Shown in pieces: positions 1 to 53,997 of a DNA stretch of 64,000 nucleotides. A program made the position numbers and the translations under genes. The notes beneath the pieces are model-generated. The model was not told the DNA's origin and did no database searches. It saw nothing but the letters and a program-made list of their open reading frames with translations. The stretch comes from an archaeon. GTDB lineage: Archaea > Iainarchaeota > Iainarchaeia > Iainarchaeales > 1-14-0-10-31-34. Where the stretch lies: assembly GCA_043819075.1 (NCBI GenBank), contig JBDRFE010000002.1:66253-130252 (forward strand). The letters are read 5' to 3'. Each line of letters begins with the position of its first letter. The stretch's first letter is position 1.

Positions 1-1
1 A

Positions 2-1165: not shown

Positions 1166-1182
1166 TCTTTAAGGTTTTTTAA

Positions 1183-1743
1183 ATGTCTTTAGAGAATGTA
1201 ATAAAAGAGATTAATCTCGCAACAGAAAGCAAAGCCAATGGAGTAATCCAGGAAGGAAAGAATTCGGCAAAAGAACTTCTGCAGAAAACAAACGAGAAAA
1301 TACAGAAGTCAAGGGAAAAAACAGTTGTAAAAACAAGTGAAATAATTTCTTCCATGGAAAGAACAGAGATTGCTTCATTAAGGCTTCAGCTGAAAAAAGA
1401 ATTACTGAATGCAAAAAAAGAGATAATTGATTCAGTGTTCGGGCAGGCAAAAAAAGACCTGCAGAATCTTCCGGTAAAAGAAAAAGAAAGAATCCTGAAA
1501 AAGCTTTTGCATAACGGAAAAAAAGAAGTTGAAGCCAGCCATTTTTATTCAAACCAGAAAGACAAGGCACTGGTTTCAAAGCTTTCAGGCCTGAAGTTCA
1601 AGGAAGCAATTGACTGCACAGGCGGTTTTATCCTTGAAAACAATGACAATACAGTCAGTTCAGACCAGACATTTGACTTAATACTGGAAAAAGTTAAGGA
1701 AAAAAGCATTAGCGAGATTTCTTTAAGGGTGTTTAATGAATGA
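1183..1743 (+). CDS. atpE: A-type ATP synthase subunit E (peripheral stalk)
   Basis: 186-aa charged, coiled-coil-like protein in the expected position between K and C. Confidence 0.6.
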   Translation: MSLENVIKEINLATESKANGVIQEGKNSAKELLQKTNEKIQKSREKTVVKTSEIISSMERTEIASLRLQLKKELLNAKKEIIDSVFGQAKKDLQNLPVKEKERILKKLLHNGKKEVEASHFYSNQKDKALVSKLSGLKFKEAIDCTGGFILENNDNTVSSDQTFDLILEKVKEKSISEISLRVFNE

Positions 1744-2645: not shown

Positions 2646-2646
2646 A

Positions 2647-2943
2647 ATGGAAATAGCGGTTGTTGGAACAGATGATTTTGTAACAGGCTTTAGCCTTGCA
2701 GGGGTAAAAAACACTTTTGCAGTGGAAAAAAATTTTGATGAAACAATTTCTTTTGTCCTGGAAAACAAAGAAATTGGAGTCATTGTAGTTGAACAAGAAG
2801 AAATGGATAAAATGAATGTCAAAACAAAAAGAATTTTAGAAAAGCTTATCACTCCGGTTGTAATAACTCTTTCTTCAAAGGGAAAGGAAACGGATTTAAG
2901 GCAATTAATTAAAAGGACGGTTGGTGTGGATTTATGGAAATAG
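2647..2943 (+). CDS. atpF: A-type ATP synthase subunit F
   Basis: [20 protein letters not shown] is the typical subunit-F N-terminus; the ORF-track start at 2623 is probably upstream of the true ATG at 2647. Confidence 0.75.
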
Positions 2944-4677: not shown

Positions 4678-4709
4678 TTTTGCAATGCTGTCATTTAAGG
4701 GGTGTAGAA

Positions 4710-7700: not shown

Positions 7701-7802
7701 GCTCCAAAAGAAACAAAACTGATTGCAGGAAAAAACAATTCAGGAAACAAGACCAGCAAAAATAATTCAAAAAACGGAAAAAACAAAAAGAAAAAAAAGT
7801 GA
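4710..7802 (+). CDS. atpB: A-type ATP synthase subunit B containing a 526-aa intein; the host protein has an unusual ~60-aa Lys/Asn-rich C-terminal tail
   Basis: Extein sequence is contiguous across the insertion (...[11 protein letters not shown] | [29 protein letters not shown]...); the ATG at 4710 is preceded by an AGGGGTG RBS (the ORF track starts at an upstream TTG at 4680). Confidence 0.9.
5454..7031 (+). mobile_element. Intein with LAGLIDADG homing-endonuclease domain inserted in atpB
   Basis: Begins with Cys ([14 protein letters not shown]), ends ...GLIISN followed by the +1 Cys of the C-extein; LAGLIDADG-like blocks [12 protein letters not shown] and [12 protein letters not shown]; in frame with the host. 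Confidence 0.85.
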
Positions 7803-7810
7803 GCTAAGTT

Positions 7811-8464
7811 ATGCCTGAGATTAAACCTACACGATCTGAATTAATCAAGTTAAACAAGGCAATAAAGTTAGCTACTTCAGGCCATGGTTTGCTGAAAAGA
7901 AAGCGTGACGGCTTAATACAGGAATTCTTTAAAGTCTTGGATGAAGCAAAAAAATCCAAGTCAGAAATGTCAGGCAATTATTCAAAAGCAACCCAAAGCA
8001 TTAACTTAGCCAGAGCAGTTGACGGAACAGTTGCAGTTAAATCCGCTTCACTTGCATTAAAGCATACTGCAAAAATTGAGGTAAAAACAAGGAATGTTAT
8101 GGGGGTAGTTGTTCCAGCAGTAAAATCAGATTATGAGGTAAAGTCTTTTGAAGAAAGAGGTTATGGCTTAATCGGAACATCTTCTTATATTGATGAGGCG
8201 GCAGAACGCTATGAAATTTTATTGAAAAACATTATTGTTGCAGCAGAAATAGAAAACACTTTAAGGAAACTTTTAACTGAAATCGACAAGACAAAAAGAA
8301 GGGTTAATGCATTAGAATTCAAGGTAATTCCCGGAATGAAAAAAAATGCCTCTTTTATCCGCTTGCGTTTAGAGGAAATGGAAAGAGACGACTTATTCAG
8401 GCTAAAAAAAATTAAAGCCAAGTCAAAAAGAAAAGCCGAAGCAAAACAATTAGAAGCAAGCTGA
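7811..8464 (+). CDS. atpD: A-type ATP synthase subunit D (central stalk)
   Basis: MPEIKPTRSELIKLNKAIKLATSGHGLLKRKRDGL is the typical subunit-D N-terminus; last gene of the operon. Confidence 0.85.
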   Translation: MPEIKPTRSELIKLNKAIKLATSGHGLLKRKRDGLIQEFFKVLDEAKKSKSEMSGNYSKATQSINLARAVDGTVAVKSASLALKHTAKIEVKTRNVMGVVVPAVKSDYEVKSFEERGYGLIGTSSYIDEAAERYEILLKNIIVAAEIENTLRKLLTEIDKTKRRVNALEFKVIPGMKKNASFIRLRLEEMERDDLFRLKKIKAKSKRKAEAKQLEAS

Positions 8465-8479
8465 TTTAATCAGTTAAAT

Positions 8480-9313
8480 TTAAATTAATCCTTTCCCTGT
8501 GTTGATTGCCAAGATTCTGGTTTCTTTATTTAACTTAAGCTTAGGCAAAGCTGCAAAAACAGTGGCGGCTGAAGGTTCGCAGTTAATTAACCCTTCAACA
8601 CTTTTCATTGCAGACAAAATTTCTTCGTCTTTTACTTCAATATATTTGTTTCCTTTTTTTAAAGCATCATTAATTTCCTTGGAGTACGGTCTCCAACAAG
8701 TTATCAGTTTGTCTGCAACGCTTTTACTGGAATTCACTCCGACACACACAATCTTAACTTTCATTTTAAGTTTTTTCAGAGCTGAATGGATTCCTAGAAA
8801 CAGTTCTCCGCTTCCCAGAGGGCAAATAATGCAGTCAAGTTTTTTCAGATACTCTTTTTTTAACTCAAAAATAATTTGTTCATTTGCTTTGTGCCATCTG
8901 TTTGTGGCATCCAAAATCTTTTCTTCATTATTTTCTCTTGCAAGTAGCGTGATTTCTTCTGGTTTAAACATTTTTTCAGCCAAATCTGCTTCAATTAATT
9001 TACCGCAGTATTTTTTGAGTTTTTCTTTAATGGAATTTCTGCATTTCTTGTCAACGATTGAAACCACTTTTATGCCTGTTCCTTCCGAGAATTTAGCCAA
9101 AGAATACCCTGAATTTCCGGCAGTAATTAATGCAAGTTTATCTATGTTATTTTCTTTGGCATTTTTGATTATCAGTTCGCTTCTTCTGTCCTTGAATGTC
9201 CCGAAAGGATTTTTGCTTTCATCTTTAATCCACAGATTAGGCAAATTAAATTTTTTGTTTAAGTAAGAAATTTTCAGCAAAGGAGTGTGCCCAACTTCAA
9301 TCATTGTTTTCAC
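8480..9313 (-). CDS. PLP-dependent enzyme, fold type II (threonine synthase/cysteine synthase-like PALP family)
   Basis: HTPLL...KDESKNPFGTFKDRRS matches the TPL...K.E..NPTGSFKDR lysine/PLP motif; ITAGNSGYS glycine loop. Confidence 0.55.
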   Translation of the reverse strand: MKTMIEVGHTPLLKISYLNKKFNLPNLWIKDESKNPFGTFKDRRSELIIKNAKENNIDKLALITAGNSGYSLAKFSEGTGIKVVSIVDKKCRNSIKEKLKKYCGKLIEADLAEKMFKPEEITLLARENNEEKILDATNRWHKANEQIIFELKKEYLKKLDCIICPLGSGELFLGIHSALKKLKMKVKIVCVGVNSSKSVADKLITCWRPYSKEINDALKKGNKYIEVKDEEILSAMKSVEGLINCEPSAATVFAALPKLKLNKETRILAINTGKGLI

Positions 9314-12031: not shown

Positions 12032-12891
12032 TGAAAAAAAAAGTTTTAGTAATCGGTGCAAGCGGTTTTCTTGGAACAGCTTTAATGCAAGAGCTTTCAA
12101 AAAAATTCAATGTTATTGGCACTTTTTTTGGGGAAAAAAAGCAGGGCTTGATTGAATTAGACTTAAATAATTCAGTTCAGCTGGATTCAGTCCTGAACTC
12201 TGTTTTCCCTGAATTAATTGTTTTGGCCGCAGCAGAAACAGATGTTGATGCATATGAATTAAAACCTGAAATTTCAAGAAACCAGATTATTTCAGCAAAA
12301 AAAATAGTTGAATACTGTAAAGAAAAAAATTGTTTTCTTGTTTTCATTTCAACTGACGCAGTATTTGACGGAAAAAAAGGAAACTATAATGAAACAGACG
12401 CCCCTAATCCAATCTGTGAATACGGCAGAAACAAATTATCCCTAGAAAAAATAATTTCATCACTGAAAAATTATTTGATTTTAAGAACTTCTGTTCTTTA
12501 TGGTTTGCCTCTTTCTCCTGACAAGTTTATTGGAGGAACAATTCTAAAGCTTTTAAAAAAAGAAAAAGTTTTTGTCGCAGAAGACTGGAAGAGAACTCCA
12601 ACTCTTACAACAGATCTTGCCAAAGCTTTAATTAATTTAACAGAAAAAAACCAAAAAGGATTATTTCATGCTGCAGGAAATTCAAGCCTTTCCTCTTATG
12701 AAACTGCTCTGGCAATAGCAGAGAAATTTAATGTTCCTTCATCTTTAATAGAAAAAATAAAAGGAGATGAATTAAAGCTTCCTGCAAAAAGGCCATTGGA
12801 TTCTTCTCTGAATATTTCCAAGCTTTTGTCTCTTGGAATCAGGATGAGTTCTTTTGAAGAAGGGCTTGAATTCATTCACTCTAATCTTTAG
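12031..12891 (+). CDS. dTDP-4-dehydrorhamnose reductase-like NAD(P)-dependent sugar reductase (RmlD family)
   Basis: [14 protein letters not shown] Rossmann motif, YGRNK catalytic Tyr-x3-Lys, ~286 aa. Confidence 0.65.
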
Positions 12892-15488
12892 TCTTCTATT
12901 CCGTTTTCTGTTACCCTGTAAACTGCTTCTCCGTCTGGAAGTGATGGGCTGTCAACTAATTTTGCAACTCTTTTCTCTGCTTTTGCTTTTCTTAGATACA
13001 ATCTAGTTTTGCTGTTGTGTACTATGAAACCATTTGCAATGTAATTTTCTGTTTCTGGGACACTGATGTCATATAGTGGCAGGTTGTTTTTCTGCTTTTT
13101 AATGCTTGTAACTTTCCCGAAAGAAATTTCTCTGTTCTGAATTGCTTCCATTAATGCTATTTTTTCTTTGTGTTGTTCAGGAATTTCTTTGCTTTTTATT
13201 GTGTTCAAAATCATTTTTAGTTCATGCATACCAATGTATTTGTAGTTTCTAGATTGAATTACCTTGCTTGGATATTTAACTAATTCTTTTAAGAAGCCCC
13301 AAACAACTTTTCTTTCAATTGGAACAGTAACTTTTGCCCTGTTTTCGCTGAATTCTTTTATCCATTTATCAAGTTTTTTTCTTTTATCTGGAGCACTGAC
13401 GCTAATTTCCCTTCCATATTTCACCACATCTTCACTGAATATTTCTAAAGATTGAAATTCTTTTGCTCCGTATTTCAGAATCCTAGATTTTATTCCAAAC
13501 CTTAGCAACAGCATTTGAATTATTTGCAGTATTTCCTTGTCTTTTTGTCCGATACTAATCCTTCTAATGCTTTTGTCAATATGCCCTTCTGCATCAACAA
13601 ATCCTTTAATGAATGCTTTGACAACAGGTTTTGGCGACTGTGTGATTAATGGGATATAATTTTTTTTAATGTAAGAAAACAATTCCCTTATTTCTTTACT
13701 GTTCACACTTAACTGCCAGCAATTTTTGTCTTTAACTTTAGAAAATTTTCCCTCCATATTAAAGACGCTTTTGAACAGTTTTTCATAAGTCTCCAGAACT
13801 TCTTTTCTTGCATCTTTAAACCTTAAACTTCTTTGCTCAAGATTTCCATCACCTAAAAAATAACCAGTCGTTTGTGCAAGTTCTTCAGAGAATGTTTCCG
13901 GAACAGTTAATGGTCTGTGCCTGTAATTTAAAGCAGGTTGTGTTTCTTCTATTATTTCTTCTGCAATTCCTTCATCAAACCCTAAACCAAAAATGCTGTT
14001 CATGTTTTCCATTGAAATTGGTCTGCTTTCATTCAAAGATCTTCTTAAAGACCTTTTATCAAAAGGCATTTCTTCACAAAACTGTTCTCTGGTAAAACCC
14101 CTGTTTTTAATAGTGTTTTTTATTAGTTCAGCGCCTTTCTTGTTGACAATCAAGAATTCTTTTAATTGCATTTTCGGAATTTCTTGTTCACTACTTTCAA
14201 TTTCTATTTTTCCTGCCTGCAACAAGTAGTCATTTTTCTTGATATCTTTTGCTTTTACTTCCCTGACTTCAAATCCATTTAACTTAAAGAATTTGTGGTT
14301 TGGAGAAGCGTTAATTTGATGCCCTGTATCAATTAAATAGCTTTCTTTTATGTCATCTCTTTTTGATTTGCATGAAACAACTGAAACTTTTCCTTTTAAT
14401 TCCTTAAAGTCGGTTGAACAAACAGTTTTTTCTGCGAACTCTTTTATTTTGGTGATCTGCCCATTGCCTGTTTGAATTAATGTATTTGGGTCAAGACAGG
14501 CGTGCCCAACCACATGGCCTCCAATTGGCGCAGTGGGGTCGCCGAATAAAATGTCTGGCCTGGACATTACCTGGTTTGTAACCAGCAAAGCAATGTTGTT
14601 CATTTCAGCTAATTTCATTAAAGTATGCATGTGCTTGTTTAGTTTTTGCTGCCTTCCTGCAAGAGTTCCTCGGCCAATGAATTCTGCCCTGAATTGAGAT
14701 GTTAAGGAATCAACTATTACCAGCTTGATGTTATTGCTTTTAATCATGTCTTCTGCTTTGTCAGCCAAAACCATTTGGTGGTCTGAGTTAAAGGCTCTTG
14801 CAACAAAAATGTTTTTCAAAACTTTTTTTTCATCTAAGCCAAAATGTTTTGCAATGCTTATCACTCTTTCTGGCCTGAAAGAATTCTCTGAATCAATGTA
14901 TAAAACATTTCCATTCAAGCCTCCTTTTTCTTTTGGCAGCTGGGTTGTAACGCATAACTGAAAACACCATTGGGTTTTTCCTGACGCATACTGGCCGTAC
15001 ACTTCTGTAATGCTTTGGGTTTCAATTCCTCCGCCGATTAAGTCATCTAATTCTTTTGAGCCAGTGGTAATTCTTCCGATAATAAGCCTTCTTTCCTGTA
15101 TTTTGTCTGCTGTCTCGTAACCCATTTCAAGTGATTCTCTTGCAGCATTAATTGCTTTTGTTGCAGTTATTTCGCCTAAACCAGCGGCTTCCATTAATTC
15201 TGCTGGAGAAGCAACAGCAATGTTTTCCATTGTCTTGTATCCTGCGCCGATTAATTTTTCAGCTGAAGTTGTTCCAACCCCGGGCAAATCTGAAATGCTT
15301 TTGTATTTTTTTCCTCTGGATTTTTTTTCTTCTGGTTCAGTTGTTTCTTCTTCTGAAGAATCAGTTATTTCTTGTGTTTTGTTTGTTGTTTCTTCAATTG
15401 CTTCTGTTTCTGTTGTGGTTTTGTTTTTCGCCATGATTTCATCTCCTGCATCAAGTTTTTTCAGGCTGTTGTTCTCGGCTGAACTCAC
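12888..15488 (-). CDS. radA: DNA repair and recombination protein RadA, containing a 495-aa intein; acidic/Thr-rich N-terminal extension
   Basis: HhH domain ([18 protein letters not shown]), Walker A (GQYASGKTQ), ...[10 protein letters not shown] | intein | [23 protein letters not shown]...; an alternative start at ATG 15434 (MAKNK...) is possible. Confidence 0.9.
13014..14498 (-). mobile_element. Intein with LAGLIDADG homing endonuclease inserted in radA
   Basis: Starts [13 protein letters not shown], ends ...NGFIVHN followed by the Ser +1 of the C-extein; LAGLIDADG-like blocks [11 protein letters not shown] and [11 protein letters not shown]. Confidence 0.85.
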
Positions 15489-15518
15489 CTATTAACCTGC
15501 GCTGTAAACAATGATTTT

Positions 15519-15557
15519 CCTTTGTTTTTAAATACTTTTCACGCCAGACTGCCGTTG
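15519..15557 (-). promoter_or_regulatory. radA promoter: AACGGCAGTC motif, then TGAAAAG, then TATTTAAAAAC TATA box
   Basis: Reverse complement reads CAACGGCAGTCTGGCGTGAAAAGTATTTAAAAAC; alignable with four other promoters in the window. Confidence 0.55.
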
Positions 15558-15626
15558 ATTTTTAATAGCTTTTTCCCATTTATTCTTTCTTTCACGCACT
15601 AAAAAAGGATTTAATAAGGGGATTAA

Positions 15627-17934: not shown

Positions 17935-19050
17935 ATGCCTTCAGATAAAATGGTTTTGCCAACAAAACAGATTGCTTTTGCAGTAATAATTATTCTTGCG
18001 CTTTTAGCTGTTTCTTTTTTATGGATTCAGTTTTCTAATTCAGGAAACAACAATTCCGATGACTTGAACACATCAGACAATAATTCTGTTGTTGGCCCGC
18101 ATTTCATTAATTTAACTATTGTAGAAAAAAATGACTGCCTTGAATGCATTTCATTGGATGCATTAGTTACTGCAATAGAAAGCTTTGATGTTAACATTCT
18201 TGGGGTAAAAACAGTTGACGCTGATTCAACTGAAGGAAAAAACTTAATTGCAATGCACAATATTTCAAAGCTTCCCGTGCTTATTGTCAACGGAAGCTTT
18301 CAGGAAACAGACTTACAGCAGGCTTGGTCTGAAATAGGCGATGAATCAAACGGAGTATTAGTATTAAGAAAAGTCTTTCCCCCGTTTTATTCTTTGGAAG
18401 AAAACATGCTTGTAGGAAAAGTAAATTTGCTTGAAATCAAGAACTCTTCTTGTACTGACTGCATTGACTTAAACTTTGTTTTCACTGACTTAAGCCAGTT
18501 AGGCGTATTATTTGAAAGCCACAGAACAATTGAATTTGATTCAGCTGAAGCAAAAGACTTAATTGAATTTTATTTAATTGACAGAATTCCTGTTGTGCTT
18601 TTAGGCGGGGATGTAATTGAATATGATTTCATTACTTCTGTCTGGGACCAGGTCGGAATAATCGATGAAGACGGAACATTTGTTTACAATGAGGCTGTTC
18701 CATACTATGACTTGTTTTCTGGCGAGACAAAAGGATTAGTTGAAGTAACTAAATTAGTTGATGCAAACTGCTCTGATTGCCTTGACGTAAACCTTTTGCT
18801 TCTTCCATTAAACCAGTTTGGGGTAAAAATAACCAAAGAAACAACAATTGATGTTTCTTCTGAAGAAGGCAAAGCTTTAATTGAAAAATATTTAATTCAA
18901 AAAGTGCCTACAATAATTGTTTCAAGCGAGGCAGAAGAATACCTTGCTTTTTTTGTTTCATGGCCTGATCTTGGCTCTCAGGAAGAAGACGGAAAATTTG
19001 TTTTCAGAAACCTGGAAGCAGTCGGCCAGCCGTTCAAGACACTAGAATAA
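17935..19050 (+). CDS. Membrane-anchored protein with three tandem thioredoxin-like CxxC domains
   Basis: N-terminal TM helix, then three ~95-aa repeats each with CxxC (NDCLEC, SSCTDC, ANCSDC) and a downstream cis-Pro-type motif (KLPVLIVNG, RIPVVLLGG, KVPTIIVSS). Confidence 0.6.
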   Translation: MPSDKMVLPTKQIAFAVIIILALLAVSFLWIQFSNSGNNNSDDLNTSDNNSVVGPHFINLTIVEKNDCLECISLDALVTAIESFDVNILGVKTVDADSTEGKNLIAMHNISKLPVLIVNGSFQETDLQQAWSEIGDESNGVLVLRKVFPPFYSLEENMLVGKVNLLEIKNSSCTDCIDLNFVFTDLSQLGVLFESHRTIEFDSAEAKDLIEFYLIDRIPVVLLGGDVIEYDFITSVWDQVGIIDEDGTFVYNEAVPYYDLFSGETKGLVEVTKLVDANCSDCLDVNLLLLPLNQFGVKITKETTIDVSSEEGKALIEKYLIQKVPTIIVSSEAEEYLAFFVSWPDLGSQEEDGKFVFRNLEAVGQPFKTLE

Positions 19051-20295
19051 TTTTTCCAGAACTAATTCTGTTTCCCCTGTAAAAGAATTATTTTTTGTTC
19101 TTGCAAGAAAACTGACTTCTTTTCCCCTGATTTCTTCATTTAATTCTTTTATCAGTTCCTCTATTATTATTTCTTCTGCCCTTGTCTCTATTTCTTTTGT
19201 TGTTTTTCCAATAATTGTTTCAGCTTTTTTTCCGTAAACAATTGCGTTCATTAAAGCGGTTTCATCCTCTAATTCAAATGAAACAACAAGCTTTCTTTCA
19301 GGCTTTAATACCTGCCCGCAGTTTCTGCAGAAAAAACTGTTGTTTTCTTCTTCAAGTTTTTTTCCGCATTCAGGGCACACATTAAATAAAAGCCTGGTTT
19401 TATTCAATCCTTTTATTTTTCCGCTTGCAACAAACTTTTGCCCTGTGCCCGCATTATTCAGTTCGGTTTTTCCGAAAAAATTAATGCATAATTCTTTTAA
19501 TTCTTTTAATGCTGTTTCCTGTAATTCCTTTATTTGAGAGCTTTCAGCTGAATGCAGTTCAATTGCGCCAAAATTTTTTTTTGCGTTAAAGCCTTTTAAT
19601 TCAACGGCTTTCCCTTCAGTTATTTTTTCTTTTGCTTTTTCGTTCCATAAAACCGCATTAATCGCCCCTGTTCCGTCAATTAATTCAATTCTTTTAAGCA
19701 TTCCGTTTTTTCCGTTGGATTCAAATTCTTTTAAAGGGAATTCCTTTAAAACCCTTGCCTGAACTGAAACATTTTTTTCCCATTCCTTTACTTCAGAAAT
19801 ATTTTTTGTTTTTGTTTCAGTTTCTTTTTCATTTATTTTTTCCTTTAATTCCATTACTCCGTTAAACCCTTTCTTTAACTGCAATCTTCCGTTAAATTCA
19901 CCCGCAGAAAACTCTTTTAACTCAATTCTTTTTCCTTCATCTTTTTCGCTTAACATTGTGGTATCATTATTCCATAATACTAGGGTTGCCTCGCCTGTTT
20001 TGTCTTTTATTAAAGCGTTTTTTACTTTGCCTTTTTTTCCTTTTGACTCAAATTCCCTTTCAGGGTAAACTGAAACAATTTCTGCTTTCAGGTTAACTGT
20101 TTCATTGCTTTTTATTTCAGAAATTGTTTTGTATTCCTGTTCTGAGTTAACTCCTGTTTCCCTTGCAATAAGGTATAATGCGGCTTCTTCGTTAAGCATT
20201 CCGGAAAACTTTTTCACTTTTTCCCTTATTTTTTCGTTTAATTCTTTTTCGCTGAGTTTTCCTTTTTCAAGGATTTCTTCCCTTAATTTCTGCAT
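19042..20295 (-). CDS. Replication protein A-like ssDNA-binding protein (multiple OB folds plus C-terminal zinc ribbon)
   Basis: Repeated OB-fold blocks (VNLKAEIVSV..., VSVQARVLKEF...), C4 zinc ribbon (CPECGKK...CRNCGQ). Confidence 0.7.
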   Translation of the reverse strand: MQKLREEILEKGKLSEKELNEKIREKVKKFSGMLNEEAALYLIARETGVNSEQEYKTISEIKSNETVNLKAEIVSVYPEREFESKGKKGKVKNALIKDKTGEATLVLWNNDTTMLSEKDEGKRIELKEFSAGEFNGRLQLKKGFNGVMELKEKINEKETETKTKNISEVKEWEKNVSVQARVLKEFPLKEFESNGKNGMLKRIELIDGTGAINAVLWNEKAKEKITEGKAVELKGFNAKKNFGAIELHSAESSQIKELQETALKELKELCINFFGKTELNNAGTGQKFVASGKIKGLNKTRLLFNVCPECGKKLEEENNSFFCRNCGQVLKPERKLVVSFELEDETALMNAIVYGKKAETIIGKTTKEIETRAEEIIIEELIKELNEEIRGKEVSFLARTKNNSFTGETELVLEKLF

Positions 20296-20332
20296 TACAT
20301 AGTTAACTCCAGAAAACCTTTAATTCCTTTTA

Positions 20333-20992
20333 TTGCCCAGTTATTTAATGCCATTGCTTAATCCAATAAAAAACGTTTTTCTCTTTAAAACAGCCGAATT
20401 TTCCTGTAACTCCTATTTAATCAAAGGAAAACAGAATGTTTTGGTTGATTCAGGTTCTGCTTCCTCAATTCCAGAGCATGTTTTAATGCTCAAAGAACTT
20501 AATTTGAAGCCTTTAGATATTGATTTTGTTTTTCACACTCATGGCCATTACGACCATTTTGAGGCAGACAAAATTTACGGCAATGCAAAAAAGTTCATCA
20601 GCAAAACTGAAGCAGAATTACTTGAAAACAACAGGCAGGAATTTACTAAAAGCAGTTTTTCTTTTGTTCCAGAATTCTCTTTTTTTTCAGAAAACCAATT
20701 GCTTGAATTTTTTCCTTTTGCCTTGAAAGTAATTTTTACCCCGGGCCATTCCAAAGGCTCTGTTTGTTTTTTTGAAGAAAAAAAGAAATGGCTTTTTTCC
20801 GGCGACACTTTGTTCGAAAAAACAATTGGCAGAACTGATTTGCCAAGCTCTTCTTTTGATGAACTAAAAAACTCGATTAAACTGCTTTCAGAACTTGAAA
20901 TAAGTTTTTTGTTTCCAGGCCACGGAAAAATAATTTCCGGAATAAAAGAAAACAAAGAAAACTTTAATTTTATTAATAAAAACTTTTTTTAG
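20333..20992 (+). CDS. Metallo-beta-lactamase fold hydrolase
   Basis: HTHGHYDHF (HxHxDH) motif. Confidence 0.7.
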   Translation: MPSYLMPLLNPIKNVFLFKTAEFSCNSYLIKGKQNVLVDSGSASSIPEHVLMLKELNLKPLDIDFVFHTHGHYDHFEADKIYGNAKKFISKTEAELLENNRQEFTKSSFSFVPEFSFFSENQLLEFFPFALKVIFTPGHSKGSVCFFEEKKKWLFSGDTLFEKTIGRTDLPSSSFDELKNSIKLLSELEISFLFPGHGKIISGIKENKENFNFINKNFF

Positions 20993-20997: not shown

Positions 20998-21031
20998 AAC
21001 ACCGGCAGTCAACCATCAAAGCAAATAAAAA
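20998..21031 (+). promoter_or_regulatory. Shared motif AACACCGGCAGTCA plus TATA (AAATAAAAA), 25 nt upstream of the PIN-gene ATG
   Basis: ACACCGGCAGTCAACCATCAAAGCAAATAAAAACAGG. Confidence 0.5.
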
Positions 21032-21053: not shown

Positions 21054-21479
21054 ATGCCTCAAAGAATTTACCTTGACTCAAATGTATTGATTTCTTTGTT
21101 AAGGGATGAAATTGACAAAAGCTTCAGGCTTCTTTCAGCTGAAGCACAGCAGTTTTTTGATTACGCAAGAAAGCATGGCGGCATTCTTGTTTTGTCAGAT
21201 TTGTTTTACAAAGAAATCAAAGACATAATCAAACTGGATAAAAAATCAGTAAATCAGTTTTTCTTTTCAGTTAAAGTATTTTTTGAGGAAACTGAATTCG
21301 CTGAACAAGATTTTAGAGAATCAAAAAAACTAGAATCTTTTGGAGTGCATTATCCTGACTCGCTTCATGCGGCAATTGCAATCAGGACAAAATGTAATTC
21401 TATTGCAACTTTTAATTCAAAAGACTTTAAAGGACTTAGAGAAAAGATTAAGGTTGTTGAACCAAGAGACTTTATTTGA
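21054..21479 (+). CDS. PIN-domain (VapC-like) nuclease
   Basis: IYLDSNVLI N-terminal Asp, conserved acidic positions (DSLHAAIA, FNSKDF); preceded by the shared TCACCGGCAGTC promoter motif. Confidence 0.65.
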   Translation: MPQRIYLDSNVLISLLRDEIDKSFRLLSAEAQQFFDYARKHGGILVLSDLFYKEIKDIIKLDKKSVNQFFFSVKVFFEETEFAEQDFRESKKLESFGVHYPDSLHAAIAIRTKCNSIATFNSKDFKGLREKIKVVEPRDFI

Positions 21480-21762
21480 ATCCTTTTTCTCTCATAAATT
21501 CGTTTGCAATCCTTTCTTTTTCTTTTCTTGGAATTGAAATTGTTTTTCCATCCCAGCCTCTTGATTTAGCTTTTTTTGCCAGTCTTTTTGCAGCAGCCCT
21601 TATGTCGCTTAAATCATCGTTAAGTTTCATTAGTTCAGCTAGCTTTTCCCTTACAGCATCTTTAATGAATTCGCTTCTAGAAGAATACAATTTAGAAGAT
21701 TTAATTACTGTGTCAAGGGTTTTCACATACTCTGAATCCACAGCAACAGTTAATGTTTTCAT
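21472..21762 (-). CDS. Ribbon-helix-helix (CopG-family) DNA-binding protein
   Basis: LTVAVDSEYVKTLD...SRSEFIKDAVREKL is a canonical RHH beta-strand plus helix; convergent with the PIN gene. Confidence 0.55.
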   Translation of the reverse strand: MKTLTVAVDSEYVKTLDTVIKSSKLYSSRSEFIKDAVREKLAELMKLNDDLSDIRAAAKRLAKKAKSRGWDGKTISIPRKEKERIANEFMREKGFK

Positions 21763-47018: not shown

Positions 47019-47055
47019 ATCACCGGAAACCTGCCCTGAAAACATTTTTAAATTA
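47019..47055 (+). promoter_or_regulatory. Shared motif ATCACCGGAAAC, then CTGAAAA, then TATA (TTTTTAAATT), ~24 nt upstream of the nurA ATG
   Basis: ATCACCGGAAACCTGCCCTGAAAACATTTTTAAATTAAC. Confidence 0.5.
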
Positions 47056-47073: not shown

Positions 47074-48174
47074 ATGAATGTTAATTCCCTGATATCTGAT
47101 GCAGTTACAAGAATAAAAGGCACTGAAAGCAAAAAAAAGCTTACCGCAAAAAAATTAACTGAATTAAAAAAACAAAAATTAACTGCATTCAGTTCCCCTG
47201 AACTGCTTGAAGAAAACTTTTTTTATGAAGTTTCTCCGACAGAATTAAACCATAAAATTGCAGGAACTGACTCTGGTTTTGTCGGCAAAAGAATGCATTC
47301 AGTTGACATAATCTTAATCAAAACTGTTTCAGCAATTTTTTCCTACAAAAAAAACAAGTTAATGAAAACAGAATACTTTCCTTCACCTACAAGTTTTCCG
47401 AAACCATTTATTTCTTCCAATACATTAGAAAACGATGAGTTTTTATGCAACCAGTCTTTGCTGAGGCTGCAGGAAGAAATTTCTTGTTCAAAAAAAGTAA
47501 TCGAAGAATTCAAGCCGGATTACTGTTTTATTGACGGAAGCATTATTCCCCAGTATGCCGACAAGGCAAGAAAAGGCTCTGCATTAAACTCTGATTATTC
47601 TTCTTTAATCAAATTGTTTGAATCATTGTATGAAACAGCTGAAAAAAATTCCTGCAGTTTAATTGCAACAGTAGAAGATTCAAGGGGCTCTAGATTCCGG
47701 AGTATTTTGCAGAAAGAAATACTGGAAAAAAACAATCTGCTTGCATCAAATGAATTAGATTGTTTTTTTGATTCAAGCCTGCTTGATTATTTGCTGTCAA
47801 AAAACCAGAGAAGCTTTTGCTTTAATTACACTTCTTCAATTAAAGAGCATCCTGTGTTAAACGATTTCAGCGAAAAATGGGCTTCAAAGATTAAAGCATT
47901 TTATTTGAAGCCTTCAATGCTTGACAGGCCGTTGAGAATAGAGTTTTTGCATAACGGAAAAAACCTTTCAGGGTACTGCAATGAAATTGCTTCAATTGTT
48001 TTGCCGCTTTCTTCTCTGCACAAAGAATACGCTTATCCAAGTGTTTTGATTGAAGCAGACTTGAGGGCAAGATTAAAGCAGAATGAAGTTGAAATTCTTT
48101 TCAATAAAATCCAGGACAAGCTTGGAAGAGAAAACGCTTTTCTTGCATTAAGAAGGAATTCAAGGCCTTTTTAA
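47074..48174 (+). CDS. nurA: NurA 5'-3' nuclease
   Basis: NurA-domain motifs (IAGTDSGF, CFIDGSI, ATVEDSRGS); sits near herA. Confidence 0.7.
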   Translation: MNVNSLISDAVTRIKGTESKKKLTAKKLTELKKQKLTAFSSPELLEENFFYEVSPTELNHKIAGTDSGFVGKRMHSVDIILIKTVSAIFSYKKNKLMKTEYFPSPTSFPKPFISSNTLENDEFLCNQSLLRLQEEISCSKKVIEEFKPDYCFIDGSIIPQYADKARKGSALNSDYSSLIKLFESLYETAEKNSCSLIATVEDSRGSRFRSILQKEILEKNNLLASNELDCFFDSSLLDYLLSKNQRSFCFNYTSSIKEHPVLNDFSEKWASKIKAFYLKPSMLDRPLRIEFLHNGKNLSGYCNEIASIVLPLSSLHKEYAYPSVLIEADLRARLKQNEVEILFNKIQDKLGRENAFLALRRNSRPF

Positions 48175-49486: not shown

Positions 49487-49521
49487 TTCACCGGCATTGC
49501 ACACTGAAAGCCTTTAAATAA
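49487..49521 (+). promoter_or_regulatory. Shared motif TTCACCGGCATTG, then CTGAAAG, then TATA (TTTAAATAA), ~25 nt upstream of the herA ATG
   Basis: TTCACCGGCATTGCACACTGAAAGCCTTTAAATAACC. Confidence 0.5.
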
Positions 49522-49541: not shown

Positions 49542-51086
49542 ATGGAAGAAAAACAGGAAATCGGCACAGTTATTTCTACAATGGATTCTCCTAGCCCATC
49601 CAAGCTAAGTTTTGTAGTTGACTCAGACAAGCCTGTTCACCGAGGCCAGTTTGTTGAACTGGATTACTCTGAAGGAACATTAATTGCTTTAGTGAACAAC
49701 GTAGTGAAAACAAACCGTTATTTTGAGAGAGCTGATTCAGTAAAAGAATTTGAATCAAATGGTTTAAGCCTCAAAGAACAGTTTCCTACCACTGAATGGG
49801 AATTTTTGATTGCAGAAACAAGACCTTTAGGTGTTTTCACTGAAAGCCTAACCAAGCGCTCTACTTTTCCTCCTTCTCCTGGCATTAAAGTCAGGGTTGC
49901 TTCGGATAAAAACCTGAAAAAATTTTTTGGTTTTGATGAAAAAAACGGATTAAGTCTTGGAAAAGTCGAATACCATGACACTGAAGTAAAAATTAATTTA
50001 ACTAAATTAATGCAAAAGCATGTTGCTGTTCTTGCAATGAGTGGTGCAGGGAAATCATATTTTGTCGGCGTCTTATTGGAGGAACTGCTTGAAAGAAAAA
50101 AAGAGCAGGGAAGGATTGCAACAATAGTGTTAGATGTTCACGGCGAATACGGTTCTTTTTGCGAGCCAACAACAGACAAAAAATTCAAAGACTATTCTTC
50201 TAAAACAAAATTAGTTAATGCAAGAAACATCCGCATCGGCGTATCAAAGCTTTCAGCAGGATTGTTTTCTTCAATTCTTCCGGGTTTAAGCGCTCCCCAG
50301 AAAAGGGATTTAGGAAGAATTATTTTTAAATTACAGCAGAAAATGAAGGAAGGTCTTGGACCGTATTCTTTGAATGACATTAAAAGAGAATTATCCAAAG
50401 ACGAGGAAGTAAAAGATGTAACAGAAAAAGCCTTGAATTCGTGGTTTGCTGAATTAGAGGAACTGAATTTGTTTTCTGAAACAGATTCTCCTTCTTTAGA
50501 GGATTTGGTTGAGCCAGGCAAAATGACTGTAGTTGATTTTTCTGATATAATTCATTTAAAGAAAAAACAGATTATAGTGAATTATTTTGCAAACAAATTG
50601 TTTGCCTTGAGAAGAAAAAAACAGATTCCGCCTTTTTTCCTTGTTCTCGAGGAAGCTCACCAGTTTATTCCAGAGCGAATGTCAAAAGAAGGCGCGATTG
50701 CAAGAAGCATTTTAGAGACAATTGCAAGAGAAGGACGAAAATTTGGTGCGGCTTTATGTTTGATTTCCCAGAGGCCAATTCAGTTAAGCACTACAGTTTT
50801 ATCTCAATGCAATACTCACATCATTTTGCGCATTACAAATCCTTATGACTTAAAGCATATCGGAGAAAGCTCTGAAGGACTAGATTCCCGTTCACTTGAA
50901 ATGATTACTGTTTTAAGAGTCGGAGAAGCATTAATCTTGGGGGAAGCAACAGGCTTTCCATTGTTTTTTAAGGTAAGGAAAAGGCTTTCAGCTGAATCAA
51001 GGCACGAGAAATCAATTGAACAAAGTGCAATAGACTTTGAGGATTCAGCAGATGAAAGAGAAAACGAGGCAAGACAGTTTCTTTAG
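49542..51086 (+). CDS. herA: HerA (FtsK/HerA-superfamily helicase)
   Basis: HVAVLAMSGAGKSYFVGV Walker A, VLEEAHQFIP Walker B; the ORF track starts at TTG 49536, and ATG 49542 lies ~25 nt after the TATA box. Confidence 0.8.
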   Translation: MEEKQEIGTVISTMDSPSPSKLSFVVDSDKPVHRGQFVELDYSEGTLIALVNNVVKTNRYFERADSVKEFESNGLSLKEQFPTTEWEFLIAETRPLGVFTESLTKRSTFPPSPGIKVRVASDKNLKKFFGFDEKNGLSLGKVEYHDTEVKINLTKLMQKHVAVLAMSGAGKSYFVGVLLEELLERKKEQGRIATIVLDVHGEYGSFCEPTTDKKFKDYSSKTKLVNARNIRIGVSKLSAGLFSSILPGLSAPQKRDLGRIIFKLQQKMKEGLGPYSLNDIKRELSKDEEVKDVTEKALNSWFAELEELNLFSETDSPSLEDLVEPGKMTVVDFSDIIHLKKKQIIVNYFANKLFALRRKKQIPPFFLVLEEAHQFIPERMSKEGAIARSILETIAREGRKFGAALCLISQRPIQLSTTVLSQCNTHIILRITNPYDLKHIGESSEGLDSRSLEMITVLRVGEALILGEATGFPLFFKVRKRLSAESRHEKSIEQSAIDFEDSADERENEARQFL

Positions 51087-52452: not shown

Positions 52453-52490
52453 TTCACCGGCAGTCATGTGTCTGCTTTTGTTTTTAAACC
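52453..52490 (+). promoter_or_regulatory. Shared motif TTCACCGGCAGTCA plus TATA (TTTTTAAACC), ~25 nt upstream of ATG 52510 of the 495-aa hypothetical
   Basis: TTCACCGGCAGTCATGTGTCTGCTTTTGTTTTTAAACC. Confidence 0.5.
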
Positions 52491-52509: not shown

Positions 52510-53997
52510 ATGCCTTTGCCCAATGCCTTTTATTTATCCAATGCGGAATATGTTGAAGAAAAAAAACGCGTGTGCGTTGAATTTTCTTCTTTGAATGAAA
52601 CCAGACGAATTTCTTTCCCTTTTATTCCATGCATTTTAGTGCATCAAACTCTTTTGGATGAATCACTTAATTCTTTTCTTTCTGATTCAGGAAAAAAAAT
52701 AAGAACAGAAAAAATTGCAAACGGCTTAAAGATTTTTTCTTCTGATTTTTCTCTTTTAAATGAAATTAATTTTCTTTCAGGAAAAAAATGCATTCTGCTT
52801 TCTCCTGAAAGGCAGTTTTTGCTTGAAAAAAACTGGAGTTTTTTTGATGAATTTGAGTTAGGCGGAGAAATAACAAAAAAAGAACTTGAAAAGCTTCCTG
52901 AAATAAAGCTTGATTTTGCTTCTGGCTCTTTAAAGGATTTTGTTTCTGAACTGCTTTCTGTTTCAGACCTTCCTGCAAAAAGCTTTCTTAACAAATTAGT
53001 TCTTTCAAATATTTTGTGTGTTAAGCCTGAACTGCTTTCTGTTTCCAAGCCTGCTTTAACAGATTTTTTCATTGAATCGGTTTTGTTCAAAAACAGTTTT
53101 GCTTTTGTGAAAAAAAACCCTAAATTTGATTCAGGTTTTTCAGGGAAAACTTCTTTTTCTAAACTAAAAGAAGTTGATTTTTCTTTTGTCTGGCCTGTGC
53201 TTTTTTCTTTTCCTTTCCATAATCTTGGTTTTGAATCAATTAATTGTTCCTGCTGCAGGCCTGAAAACCCTGCTGAAAGAAATGTCCTTCCATCATCTCT
53301 TATTGAAGTCAGGTTCATTCAGGATGGAATATACTTTGAATCAACAAACAACGAATGGGGTTCTTTTGTGCATGAAAATTCTTCTGGAAAACAAAAAAGA
53401 GTCAAGAAAATGATTGAATGGAATCTTAGAAGCATTCCTTTGGGCCCTTTTTTCAGAAACGATGTTTTGAGGGTTCCGTTAACTGATGCAGCCAAATTAA
53501 GAGATGAAGGAAAAGTTGTTTTTTTGTCTTCTCATGACCTGCACTGGGCTTGCACTAAAAAAGAGTCTTTTCTGTCTGAAAAATTAAGTGAATTAAACAA
53601 AAAAATTGTTTTTTTTGAAAGAAGGATTAATGAGCTTGAACTGAATTCGGTTAAAGAGAACGGAATTGCTTTTTCTTTGTTTCTTGACGAAGACACTGAA
53701 TTCATTTTTCTTTCAGAGTATAAAAAGGCTTTGAGGCAGCTTTTTTCTTCTGTTCCATTCCAGCTGGCTTCTTTTTCTTCTGCTTTTTTTGATTTTTCTC
53801 TTTCAAATTCAATTAAATGTGTTTTTGCATCTGTTTTAAGCAGGTTCAGGGAGTTTTCTTTGCTGAATTCAAGCGCTTCTTTTGCCCAAAAAAACACTGT
53901 TTTAATTGATTCAGATAATGCCTTGGATTTGCTGTTGGAGTTTTCCAAGTCTGAGGGAATCCCGGTTCCAGAATTAGGGCTTGCGGTAAAGCCATGA
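52510..53997 (+). CDS. Hypothetical ~495-aa protein carrying the repair-type promoter motif
   Basis: The ORF track starts at GTG 52468; ATG 52510 lies ~25 nt after the TATA box; contains a Cys cluster (CSCCRPENPAE); not recognised. Confidence 0.5.
   Translation: MPLPNAFYLSNAEYVEEKKRVCVEFSSLNETRRISFPFIPCILVHQTLLDESLNSFLSDSGKKIRTEKIANGLKIFSSDFSLLNEINFLSGKKCILLSPERQFLLEKNWSFFDEFELGGEITKKELEKLPEIKLDFASGSLKDFVSELLSVSDLPAKSFLNKLVLSNILCVKPELLSVSKPALTDFFIESVLFKNSFAFVKKNPKFDSGFSGKTSFSKLKEVDFSFVWPVLFSFPFHNLGFESINCSCCRPENPAERNVLPSSLIEVRFIQDGIYFESTNNEWGSFVHENSSGKQKRVKKMIEWNLRSIPLGPFFRNDVLRVPLTDAAKLRDEGKVVFLSSHDLHWACTKKESFLSEKLSELNKKIVFFERRINELELNSVKENGIAFSLFLDEDTEFIFLSEYKKALRQLFSSVPFQLASFSSAFFDFSLSNSIKCVFASVLSRFREFSLLNSSASFAQKNTVLIDSDNALDLLLEFSKSEGIPVPELGLAVKP

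What the first reader, a model, noticed from the sequence alone, without database searches (positions are those of the whole stretch)
15519..15557. Shared upstream motif (TCACCGGCAGTC, CTGAAA, TATA) links radA, nurA, herA, a PIN nuclease and a 495-aa hypothetical into a candidate repair regulon
Five promoters share the same architecture. A conserved GC-rich box ([T/A]CACCGG[C/A]A[G/T]T[C/G]) is followed 6-10 nt later by (C)TGAAA[A/G]. An A/T-rich TATA-like box follows, and a start codon lies 24-26 nt after the TATA centre, which points to leaderless mRNAs. The sites are radA (15519-15557, minus strand), the PIN gene (20998-21031), nurA (47019-47055), herA (49487-49521) and the 52510-53997 hypothetical (52453-52490). 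A specific 10-mer with 7 G/C is expected about 0.01 times in 128 kb of 30% GC sequence. Four to five occurrences, all positioned identically relative to a TATA and a start codon, is therefore highly non-random. Three of the genes are core homologous-recombination and end-resection factors. This looks like a binding site for a transcription factor upstream of BRE/TATA that controls a DNA-damage or recombination regulon. By association it implicates the PIN-domain protein and the unknown 495-aa protein in DNA repair. rad50 and hjc do not carry the motif.
Basis: seen in the sequence. Interest (0 to 1): 0.75.

Follow-up and report, generated by a model that had tools for sequence, protein, structure and literature searches.

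The report
Shared promoter box of archaeal recombination genes
A conserved 11-12 bp DNA box sits at a fixed place upstream of the promoters of five DNA-break-repair genes in a tiny DPANN archaeon and its relatives. This points to a previously undescribed recombination regulon, which also contains a miniature DNA-polymerase-like protein.

Summary
The window comes from an Iainarchaeota/Diapherotrites (DPANN) archaeon with 34.5% GC.

**The box.** An asymmetric box, consensus TCACCGGCA(G/T)T, lies 25-30 nt upstream of the TATA box and always in gene orientation. It precedes radA, nurA, herA, a PIN-nuclease gene and the 495-aa ORF.

**Statistics.** A matrix trained only on other genomes ranks four of the five sites as the top four of 128,000 window positions. 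Box plus TATA at the right spacing occurs 5 times against 0.04 expected.

**Conservation.** The box is kept in orthologous promoters of at least 12 related genomes (32 sites) while the flanking sequence diverges. In about 416 kb of related DNA it precedes no unrelated gene.

- CTGAAA plus TATA is the organism's generic BRE/TATA, not part of the specific signal.
- radA is not leaderless. It has a conserved, structured leader of about 70 nt.
- The radA and nurA boxes deviate from the stated consensus.

**Best reading.** The box is the site of an unidentified transcription factor, probably an activator, that co-regulates recombination genes. The factor and the inducing signal are unknown.

The parts
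15547..15558 (-). radA box TCAACGGCAGTC (lineage-conserved variant with A at position 4)
   Evidence: AAATCAACGGCA is invariant in 5 genomes. The AR10-like L143 has GCACCGGAA at the same offset.
15525..15541 (-). radA BRE-like TGAAAAG plus TATA TATTTAAAAA
   Evidence: AAAGTATTTAAAA is invariant in 5 genomes.
15435..15505 (-). conserved structured 5' leader of radA, about 70 nt of transcript up to ATG 15434 (the ATG lies 95 nt after the TATA centre). Three nested helices; the 3' strand abuts the GGAG Shine-Dalgarno.
   Evidence: 91% of cells paired, 9 of 18 pairs with compensatory changes, 0/500 shuffles reach the observed covariation. No Rfam match.
12888..15434 (-). radA (848 aa, with a LAGLIDADG intein after about residue 326)
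20999..21010 (+). PIN-gene box ACACCGGCAGTC
   Evidence: The orthologue in L021/L022 has TCACAGGCAGTG at the same offset.
21018..21031 (+). PIN-gene BRE-like AAAGC plus TATA-like AAATAAAAA; ATG at 21054 (leaderless spacing)
21054..21479 (+). PIN-domain nuclease gene (141 aa). Its 3' end overlaps a convergent RHH gene, 21472-21762 (-).
47020..47031 (+). nurA box TCACCGGAAACC (weakest match in the window)
   Evidence: Positional orthologues: TCACCTGCA (L001, L003), TCACTGGCG (L002), TCACAGGCA (L013), CGACCGGCA (L017), CGACCGGAA (L006), GCACCGGAA (L007).
47036..47054 (+). nurA BRE CTGAAAAC plus TATA TTTTTAAATT; ATG at 47074
47074..48174 (+). nurA
49488..49499 (+). herA box TCACCGGCATTG
   Evidence: conserved in L001, L002, L003 and L005
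49504..49521 (+). herA BRE CTGAAAGC plus TATA TTTAAATAA; ATG at 49542
49542..51086 (+). herA
52454..52465 (+). box TCACCGGCAGTC of the 495-aa gene (perfect consensus)
   Evidence: conserved in L001, L002, L003, L005, L013, L014 and L017
52481..52488 (+). TATA TTTTTAAA of the 495-aa gene; ATG at 52510
52510..53997 (+). 495-aa protein with a compact family-B DNA-polymerase fold. The motif A Asp is kept; motifs B and C are decayed.

Best explanation
The box TCACCGGCA(G/T)T is a cis-regulatory element: the binding site of a sequence-specific transcription factor that is still unidentified.

**Position.** It occupies about -57 to -46 relative to the transcription start. That places it 8-12 bp upstream of BRE and 25-30 nt upstream of TATA. 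It has one orientation only.

**Target genes.** In Iainarchaeota (DPANN archaea) it precedes the double-strand-break resection and recombination genes nurA, herA and radA. It also precedes a conserved gene for a family-B-polymerase-fold protein next to herA, and an accessory PIN nuclease.

**Likely mechanism.** The site lies upstream of BRE/TATA rather than over it or over the start site. It is also asymmetric with fixed polarity and phasing. The factor therefore most likely binds as a monomer or pseudo-dimer and activates transcription by helping TBP/TFB assemble. This is how other archaeal upstream-site activators work. The result would be co-regulation of these genes, with DNA damage or the cell cycle as the plausible signal.

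**Shown here:**
- The box exists.
- It is non-random.
- Its position and orientation are fixed.
- It is conserved across the phylum.
- It is restricted to these gene families in the DNA examined.
- The target proteins are identified.

**Inferred:** protein binding, activation rather than repression, and the signal.
For: **Non-randomness and independent recovery.** The PWM from other genomes gives the top 4 of 128,000 positions. Box plus TATA occurs 5 times against 0.043 expected. CACCGGCA occurs 3 times against 0.28.

**Phylogenetic footprints.** In alignments of the herA, 495-aa gene, nurA and radA promoters, the box and TATA are the conserved islands.

**Geometry.** 32 sites from at least 12 genomes have a box-to-TATA offset of 25-30. 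G7 is invariant; A3, G6 and A9 are nearly so. More distant lineages with 37-49% GC keep a CCGG[CA]A core at nurA, the 495-aa gene and radA.

**Specificity.** 15 of 16 strict matches in 416 kb are at these five gene families. Other boxed promoters found elsewhere also precede DNA-metabolism genes:
- a TIGR03916 'DNA modification/repair radical SAM' gene in L026
- rad50 in L017

**Functional coherence.**
- RadA, NurA and HerA are confirmed by Pfam.
- The 495-aa protein has a PolB fold.
- That gene is syntenic between herA and rad50.
- A PIN homologue sits next to herA in L013.

**Generic core promoter.** BRE/TATA are generic, so the box is the only regulon-specific element.
Against: - No protein has been shown to bind, and no candidate regulator could be tied to the box. 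The tandem Lrp/AsnC gene at 44828-45802 is syntenic only in the closest relatives. The RHH next to PIN is not linked to the box.
- There are no expression data, so neither the direction of regulation nor damage-inducibility is known.
- Only 64 kb of this genome plus about 350 kb of relatives could be scanned, and those loci were chosen through the target genes. Other regulon members or unrelated targets elsewhere in the genome cannot be excluded.
- rad50, hjc, RPA and DnaG in the window lack the box. It is therefore not a general repair or replication signal.
- The window's nurA site is weak under the other-genome PWM: it is not among the top 25 hits.
- The metagenome-wide census was dominated by chance hits.
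Confidence: 0.62

Rival explanations
1. The box is an operator for a repressor. This would be a LexA-like logic, in which a factor keeps recombination genes low until a signal removes it.
For: The conservation and specificity evidence is the same as for the activator model. Bacterial repair regulons are repressor-based. Some archaeal factors act as both activator and repressor, for example Sulfolobus Orc1-2 (PMC6061795).
Against: The box ends 13-18 bp upstream of TATA and about 8-12 bp upstream of BRE in all 32 sites. From established knowledge of archaeal regulation, repressors normally overlap BRE/TATA or the start site. The box has no dyad symmetry, which is not what a dimeric operator would show (sequence inspection).
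Confidence: 0.18
2. The box is read by an Orc1/Cdc6-family damage-response regulator, as in Sulfolobales. That would make it the DPANN counterpart of the Orc1-2/DDRE system.
For: - Orc1/Cdc6 proteins bind asymmetric sites with fixed polarity as monomers (established knowledge).
- Orc1-2 is the only characterised archaeal global damage regulator, and its motif lies -23 to -55 from the ATG (PMC6061795).
- PolB2 neighbourhoods are enriched in orc1/cdc6 (PMC11791011).
- L006 appears to carry an Orc1/Cdc6-like P-loop gene about 1.8 kb from nurA. This rests on reading the sequence and was not verified.
Against: - The box (TCACCGGCA) bears no resemblance to ANTTTC.
- The Sulfolobus regulon (ups, ced, tfb3, dpo2) does not include radA, herA or nurA.
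- None of the ORFs annotated in the window is an orc1/cdc6 gene. A few ORFs, mainly the ATP-synthase operon at 1-9300, were not scanned.
Confidence: 0.1
3. The similarity is a chance or compositional coincidence, or a remnant of promoter duplication, with no regulatory role.
For: - The 12-mer with up to 3 mismatches is not enriched: 23 against 13.
- One good match, 43956 (-), lies inside the PTH2 coding sequence.
- PWM hits scoring at least 14 are only modestly above shuffles: 4 against 1.2.
Against: - The box is conserved at five gene families across at least 12 genomes, through GC contents of 27-49%, while the surrounding intergenic sequence is unalignable.
- Offset and orientation are fixed.
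- Sequence outside box/BRE/TATA is not shared between the five promoters, so duplication is excluded.
Confidence: 0.04

Closest known systems
Sulfolobales DNA-damage-responsive element (DDRE, 5'-ANTTTC-3') bound by Orc1-2 (PMC6061795)
   Same: Both are short promoter-proximal motifs shared by a set of DNA-damage-related genes in an archaeon, within about 60 nt of the start codon. In both cases the regulon includes a non-canonical family-B polymerase (Dpo2/PolB2 in Sulfolobus).
   Different: - The sequences are unrelated.
- This box lies strictly upstream of BRE at a fixed offset.
- The target set here is the core recombination machinery (radA, herA, nurA), which is not in the Sulfolobus DDR regulon.
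- The lineage is DPANN, not TACK.
- The binding protein is unknown.
Archaeal upstream activating sites (e.g. Ptr2 of Methanocaldococcus, TFB-RF1 of Pyrococcus, GvpE UAS of Halobacterium). Cited from established knowledge; the papers were not read here.
   Same: The site lies immediately upstream of BRE/TATA and its function depends on position, consistent with helping TBP/TFB recruitment.
   Different: Those sites are usually dyad-symmetric or tandem, and they control metabolic or gas-vesicle genes. This box is a single asymmetric 9-12 bp element in front of DNA-repair genes.
Bacterial SOS box / LexA regulon
   Same: The logic is the same: one shared cis-element in front of the recombinase gene plus nuclease and polymerase genes. 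The TIGR03916 radical-SAM repair gene, boxed in L026, is described as SOS-associated in bacteria. That statement rests on my own knowledge, not on a tool result.
   Different: The SOS box is a palindromic operator overlapping the promoter and bound by a dimeric repressor. This box is asymmetric and lies upstream of an archaeal BRE/TATA promoter.
Archaeal PolB2 (Dpo2) and other 'inactivated' family-B polymerases (PMC11791011, PMC4104785), as comparators for the 495-aa protein
   Same: PolB fold, a decayed exonuclease domain, loss of the canonical DxD in motif C, small size, and association with damage-response genes.
   Different: - No sequence-level match to any PolB Pfam model, even at E<=10, nor to PDB sequences.
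- Neither Asp of DxD is conserved, and motif B is lost.
- There are no iRadA or PPB2 neighbours. Instead the gene has a fixed slot between herA and rad50.
- The family is small and self-contained: 190 clusters among 1.84 billion representatives, all about 500 aa.

Membership tests
Transcription-factor binding site defining a regulon | Motif over-represented relative to chance | tested here: met
Transcription-factor binding site defining a regulon | Fixed position and orientation relative to core promoter elements | tested here: met
   box-to-TATA offset 25-30 nt in 32 of 32 sites, always gene-oriented
Transcription-factor binding site defining a regulon | Conservation in orthologous promoters while flanks diverge | tested here: met
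Transcription-factor binding site defining a regulon | Functionally coherent downstream genes and absence from unrelated promoters | tested here: met
   Limited to about 416 kb of sequence, not whole genomes.
Transcription-factor binding site defining a regulon | Specific binding by a protein, and an effect on transcription | not testable with these tools
   needs EMSA/DAP-seq and in vitro transcription
Orc1-2 / DDRE system of Sulfolobales | Motif 5'-ANTTTC-3' in the promoter | tested here: not met
   the conserved element is TCACCGGCA; DDRE as defined in PMC6061795
Orc1-2 / DDRE system of Sulfolobales | Presence of an Orc1-2-clade regulator | not tested
   no orc1/cdc6 gene among the window ORFs that were scanned; the rest of the genome is not available
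LexA/SOS operator | Palindromic operator overlapping the promoter | tested here: not met
   no dyad symmetry; the site lies upstream of BRE
Family B DNA polymerase (for the 495-aa protein) | PolB fold (N-terminal, exonuclease, palm, fingers and thumb domains) | tested here: met
Family B DNA polymerase (for the 495-aa protein) | Catalytic motifs A (DxxSLYPS), B (KxxxNSxYG) and C (DTD), and Exo I (DxE) | tested here: not met
   - Motif A-like (I/V)DFSxVW is present, with the Asp in 26 of 30.
- Motif B is lost.
- The motif C aspartates are present in only 10 of 30 and 7 of 30.
- The Exo I Asp is invariant but the Glu is absent.

Motif assignment is by sequence pattern and predicted secondary structure, not by a residue-level structural alignment.
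Family B DNA polymerase (for the 495-aa protein) | Sequence match to the PolB family models | tested here: not met
   no Pfam hit at E<=10 for any of 30 members; no NCBIfam hit; no PDB sequence hit
PolB2 mutasome (PolB2 + iRadA + PPB2) | Operon with iRadA and PPB2 | tested here: not met
   the neighbours are herA upstream and Rpb6, S17e and rad50 downstream
Type II toxin-antitoxin VapBC (for the PIN gene) | PIN-domain toxin | tested here: met
   Pfam PIN, E 4.3e-7; homologues carry PIN/PIN_3
Type II toxin-antitoxin VapBC (for the PIN gene) | Antitoxin gene co-directional and upstream in one operon | tested here: not met
   the only partner-like gene is a convergent gene overlapping the PIN 3' end. 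It is an RHH gene in the window and L021/L022, a weakly similar 99-aa gene in L013, and an unassigned 97-aa gene in L147

The most novel reading that the evidence does not exclude
The box is the operator or UAS of a phylum-wide, signal-responsive (SOS-like or cell-cycle) recombination regulon in DPANN archaea. That would be the first archaeal regulon to include the recombinase and the HerA-NurA resection machine. Its conserved member, the catalytically decayed mini-PolB, would be a structural partner of HerA/NurA/Rad50, occupying the slot where mre11 sits in the herA-mre11-rad50-nurA clusters known from other archaea (gene order recalled from the literature, not tested here). In addition, radA would be controlled at a second, post-transcriptional level by a novel structured leader.
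Probability: 0.15. Interest if true: 0.85.

Novelty: new member of a known kind. Interest (0 to 1): 0.6.

Why it matters
**An open question.** Outside Sulfolobales, whether archaea co-ordinate DNA-repair gene expression at all is unresolved. No archaeal regulon containing radA, herA and nurA was found in the literature held here.

**What the box offers.** A short, well-defined, phylogenetically conserved box in front of exactly these genes is a concrete handle. DPANN genomes are small and encode few regulators, so the box can be used as bait to fish the factor out of a short list.

**Two further leads from the same analysis:**
- It assigns a fold and a functional neighbourhood to a previously blank protein family. 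This is a roughly 500-aa PolB-like protein placed between herA and rad50 in a lineage where no mre11 lies beside rad50.
- It reveals a covarying RNA structure in the radA leader.

Both are testable leads on how reduced-genome archaea organise recombination.

Tried and rejected
- **Metagenome-wide census.** I scanned with TTCACCGGCAGT-N13-19-TTTAAA. Three looked like real promoters:
  - L026, in front of a TIGR03916 repair radical-SAM gene
  - L088, in front of a 33-aa ORF
  - L069, with no downstream ORF
- **Sixth site in the window, 43956 (-), TCACCGGAAAAC plus TATA-like.** It encodes the C-terminus (FTGKL) of PTH2. It has no downstream gene or Rfam RNA on that strand and was not seen in relatives. 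I rejected it as chance.
- **RPA promoter, GCAATGGCATT (9 of 11 to the radA box).** The orthologues conserve a different element (GGATTAAnnAAAGGCATAA), and the box-to-TATA spacing is off. Rejected.
- **Dyad or direct-repeat structure of the box.** Partial inverted repeats lie upstream of the nurA and herA boxes, but their spacings are inconsistent (5 against 3 nt) and they are absent elsewhere. Rejected.
- **Candidate regulators by neighbourhood.**
  - The tandem Lrp/AsnC protein (44828-45802) is syntenic only in L001 and L002.
  - The 106-aa protein (44439-44759) is conserved near nurA in L014 but has no DNA-binding signature.
  - An ArsR/HTH_5 gene lies next to nurA in L014 and L017. It heads the adjacent cysteine-desulfurase/NifU gene run and so probably belongs with it (inferred from gene order).
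  - None is convincing.
- **Sequence-based annotation of the 495-aa protein.** Pfam, NCBIfam and the PDB profile search all gave nothing. Only structure prediction resolved it.
- **Foldseek against afdb50** was unavailable.
- **The look-up of encoding contigs with the window's 495-aa protein** found nothing, although an identical NCBI protein exists (P0001).

Full report
**Source and genes.**

The window has 34.5% GC. It belongs to an Iainarchaeota/Diapherotrites (DPANN) archaeon. Its HerA is 83-86% identical to proteins of MAGs named Candidatus Iainarchaeum or Diapherotrites. Identical proteins are on record as 'MAG: archaeon', on a 146,652-bp contig.

- 12888-15434 (-) is RadA, with an intein.
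- 21054-21479 is a PIN-domain protein.
- 47074-48174 is NurA.
- 49542-51086 is HerA.
- 52510-53997 has no family hit.

Other DNA-metabolism genes in the window:
- rad50, 54508-56892 (-)
- RPA, 19042-20295 (-)
- hjc, 38791-39195 (+)
- a DnaG-type primase, 36928-38292 (-)

**The observation.**

All five sites are present at the stated coordinates. radA has TCAACGG. nurA has GGAAACC after the CCGG core.

| Test | Observed | Expected |
|---|---|---|
| Core CACCGGCA | 3 | 0.28 |
| Loose 12-mer, up to 3 mismatches | 23 | 13 |
| [AT]CA[AC]CGG[AC]A, then TATA 14-21 nt later | 5 (exactly the five sites) | 0.043 (max 2 in 1000 shuffles) |

The loose 12-mer search is uninformative. The composite pattern was defined post hoc. 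I therefore also built a weight matrix only from sites in other genomes and scanned the window. The 495-aa, herA, radA and PIN sites were ranks 1-4 of 128,000 strand-positions. All four are intergenic and gene-oriented. Three of the four box starts lie 55-57 nt before the ATG. The window's nurA site is weak under this matrix.

**What is specific and what is generic.**

The '(C)TGAAA[A/G]' and 'TATA' parts are the ordinary core promoter of this organism. Promoters without a box also show an A-rich stretch directly upstream of a TTTAAA-type TATA. Examples:
- CCAGAAAACC-TTTAAT in front of the metallo-beta-lactamase gene
- GAAAACTTTA-TTTAAA
- GAAAAGCCAC-ATTAAA

This fits the archaeal BRE (established knowledge). 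The 495-aa promoter does not even have CTGAAA. The regulon-specific element is therefore the GC-rich box alone.

**Leaders.**

For PIN, nurA, herA and the 495-aa gene the ATG lies 24-27 nt after the TATA centre, with no Shine-Dalgarno sequence. This is consistent with leaderless mRNAs.

For radA the claim is wrong. The conserved start is ATG 15434, and ATGGCGGAAAAA is conserved in relatives. It lies 95 nt after the TATA centre.

**Phylogenetic footprinting.**

I fetched syntenic loci from related genomes. In every alignment the box and BRE/TATA are the conserved islands, while the flanks and the spacer between them diverge.

| Promoter | Box sequence in relatives |
|---|---|
| herA | TCACCGGCA in L001, L003, L005; TCACTGGCG in L002; TCAGGGGCA in L004 |
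| 495-aa gene | TCACCGGCA in L001, L002, L005; TCATCGGCA in L003; TCACGGGAG in L013; ACGCCGGAA in L014; TGACCGGCA in L017 |
| nurA | TCACCTGCA, TCACTGGCG, TCACAGGCA, CGACCGGCA, CGACCGGAA, GCACCGGAA |
| radA | AAATCAACGGCA invariant in five genomes; GCACCGGAA in the AR10-like lineage |
| PIN | TCACAGGCAGTG in L021/L022 |

I compiled 32 sites from at least 12 genomes with 27-49% GC:
- The box-to-TATA offset is always 25-30 nt.
- The orientation is always that of the gene.
- G7 is invariant. A3, G6, A9 and C2 are nearly invariant.

One genome (contig CAZSOZ010000001) carries the box at herA, nurA, the 495-aa gene (locus L003) and radA (locus L019).

**Specificity.**

In about 416 kb of Iainarchaeota DNA the strict box+TATA pattern matches 16 places. 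Fifteen are promoters of the five gene families. The sixteenth, at 43956 (-), lies in the PTH2 coding sequence and is taken as chance.

rad50, hjc, RPA and DnaG in the window have no box. rad50 in L017 has a box-like element at the correct offset.

A metagenome-wide pattern scan was mostly noise. It did give one informative hit. In L026 a perfect box and TATA precede a gene that passes the NCBIfam cut-off for TIGR03916, 'putative DNA modification/repair radical SAM protein'.

**The 495-aa protein.**

It belongs to a small family of about 500-aa proteins: 40 hits, and 190 clusters among 1.84 billion representatives. No Pfam, NCBIfam or PDB sequence match was found.

An AlphaFold2 model built from 30 homologues is confident, with pLDDT 89.8 and pTM 0.88.
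- The 50 Foldseek matches listed, of 149 with E<=0.001, are all family-B DNA polymerases.

Catalytic motifs:
- A motif-A-like (I/V)DFSxVW is present, with the Asp in 26 of 30 members.
- Motif B is lost.
- The two motif-C aspartates are present in only 10 of 30 and 7 of 30.
- Exo I keeps its Asp but not its Glu.

The protein is therefore a compact PolB-fold protein that is probably catalytically decayed. It is reminiscent of PolB2 (PMC11791011). It lacks the iRadA and PPB2 partners and has its own fixed position: nurA-HAD-herA-[495-aa gene]-...-rad50 (convergent) in all relatives examined.

No mre11 lies next to rad50 in these loci. From my own knowledge, in many other archaea mre11 sits in the herA-mre11-rad50-nurA cluster.

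**The PIN gene.**

It forms a conserved pair with a convergent gene that overlaps its 3' end. This is not the usual co-directional antitoxin-toxin arrangement. The partner is:
- an RHH gene in the window and L021/L022
- a weakly similar 99-aa gene in L013
- an unassigned 97-aa gene in L147

In L013 a homologue (32% identity, E 7e-14) sits directly after herA. It has a weak box-like element, TCAAGGGAA, at the right offset. In L147 (47% identity) no box is visible, and the pair is absent from the CAZSOZ01 genome. PIN is therefore an accessory member of the regulon.

**Mechanism.**

The box is asymmetric, with no consistent dyad or repeat. It has fixed polarity and lies upstream of BRE rather than over BRE/TATA or the start site.

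From established knowledge of archaeal regulation, upstream sites usually act positively by stabilising TBP/TFB. Repressors overlap the core promoter. I therefore favour an activator that binds as a monomer or pseudo-dimer.

The factor could not be identified from gene neighbourhoods. Whether the signal is DNA damage, the cell cycle or something else is open.

**Comparison with known systems.**

The closest characterised system is the Sulfolobus Orc1-2/DDRE system. It uses an unrelated motif (ANTTTC) and a different gene set (PMC6061795). Searches of the held literature found no description of this box or of a recombination regulon in DPANN archaea.

**Side finding: the radA leader.**

The radA leader, about 15505-15435 (-), folds into the same three nested helices in five genomes. 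On the alignment:
- 91% of cells are paired.
- 9 of 18 pairs show compensatory changes.
- No shuffle out of 500 reaches the observed covariation.
- Slid controls collapse to 27-47% pairing.

The 3' strand abuts the GGAG Shine-Dalgarno. No Rfam family matches. Only five sequences were available, so this is a lead and not a proof.

**Verdict.**

The corrections are as follows:
- BRE/TATA are generic.
- radA is not leaderless.
- The stated consensus is too narrow.

It is a new member of a known kind, a promoter-proximal regulatory site defining a regulon. Its interest is above average because of three things: the gene set, the lineage and the PolB-like member.

Noticed in passing
window 15435-15505 (-): radA has a conserved leader of about 70 nt (the ATG lies 95 nt after the TATA centre). 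It forms three nested helices supported by compensatory changes in five genomes, and the 3' strand abuts the GGAG ribosome-binding site. There is no Rfam match. It may be a new cis-regulatory RNA.
   Followed up: partly
window 12888-15434 (-); L021 442-2988 (-): RadA carries a LAGLIDADG intein of about 480 aa after residue ~326. The same 848-aa form occurs in L021. L018, L019 and L020 have intein-free radA of 334-351 aa.
   Followed up: partly
window 48800-49477 (+); L001-L005, L013, L014, L017: A HAD-family hydrolase gene lies between nurA and herA in every relative examined. In L017 it is contiguous with both, apparently as one operon under the nurA box. It may be a DNA-end-processing phosphatase. 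This was not tested.
   Followed up: partly
window 48174-48756 (+): A small RHH-like (DUF7557/DUF6364) gene plus a PemK/MazF toxin gene are inserted between nurA and the HAD gene. L013 has an unannotated 78-aa gene plus a PIN gene in the same slot, so toxin-antitoxin-like modules recur inside this cluster.
   Followed up: no
window 54508-57475 and 62169-62816 (-): No mre11 lies next to rad50. The upstream genes match the aS21 and EF-1-beta positions seen in relatives. The only metallophosphoesterase seen in the window is a 215-aa protein 5 kb away, with no box.
   Followed up: no
window 35868-35913 (-) and 57651-57696 (+), with surrounding 35560-35950 and 57640-57870: GC-rich hairpin arrays, with ACGGCATAAAGCCGT-type stems, follow tRNA genes in this 34% GC genome. 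The two loci share an exact 46-nt repeat. A tRNA-like 3' end at 35925-35949 (-) is not called by ARAGORN or Rfam. A similar hairpin follows the boxed small ORF in L088.
   Followed up: partly
window 52400-52445 (+); L001, L002, L003, L005 upstream of the 495-aa gene box: A conserved AT-rich block with repeated TATATAT units (AATATATAC...TATATATTATTTATATA) lies just upstream of the box of the 495-aa gene in the close relatives. Its function is unknown. It may be a divergent promoter.
   Followed up: no
window ~56930-56950 (-); L001, L002 rad50 upstream: The rad50 promoters share a different conserved element, CTACATAACTAATT. A similar ATACATAACT occurs upstream of the tandem-Lrp gene at about 45880.
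   Followed up: no
window 20296-20345 (-); L019, L021 RPA upstream: The RPA promoters conserve GGATTAAnnAAAGGCATAA, which is distinct from the box. In L021 a TTCACCGGAT precedes it, in front of a 160-aa ORF upstream of RPA, but the spacing to TATA is off.
   Followed up: partly
L017 15627-16746 (+): A good box (TCACCGGCA) plus TATA precedes a free-standing LAGLIDADG-type ORF with an N-terminal stretch that looks HTH-like (judged by eye). It is either a homing endonuclease riding the regulon or a chance match.
   Followed up: no
window 21054-21762; L021 10001-10709; L013 7288-7950; L147 10001-10691: The PIN gene and a small gene of about 96-99 aa form a conserved convergent pair with overlapping 3' ends. 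The partner is an RHH gene in the window and L021, weakly similar in L013, and unassigned in L147. This layout is unusual for a toxin-antitoxin pair.
   Followed up: partly
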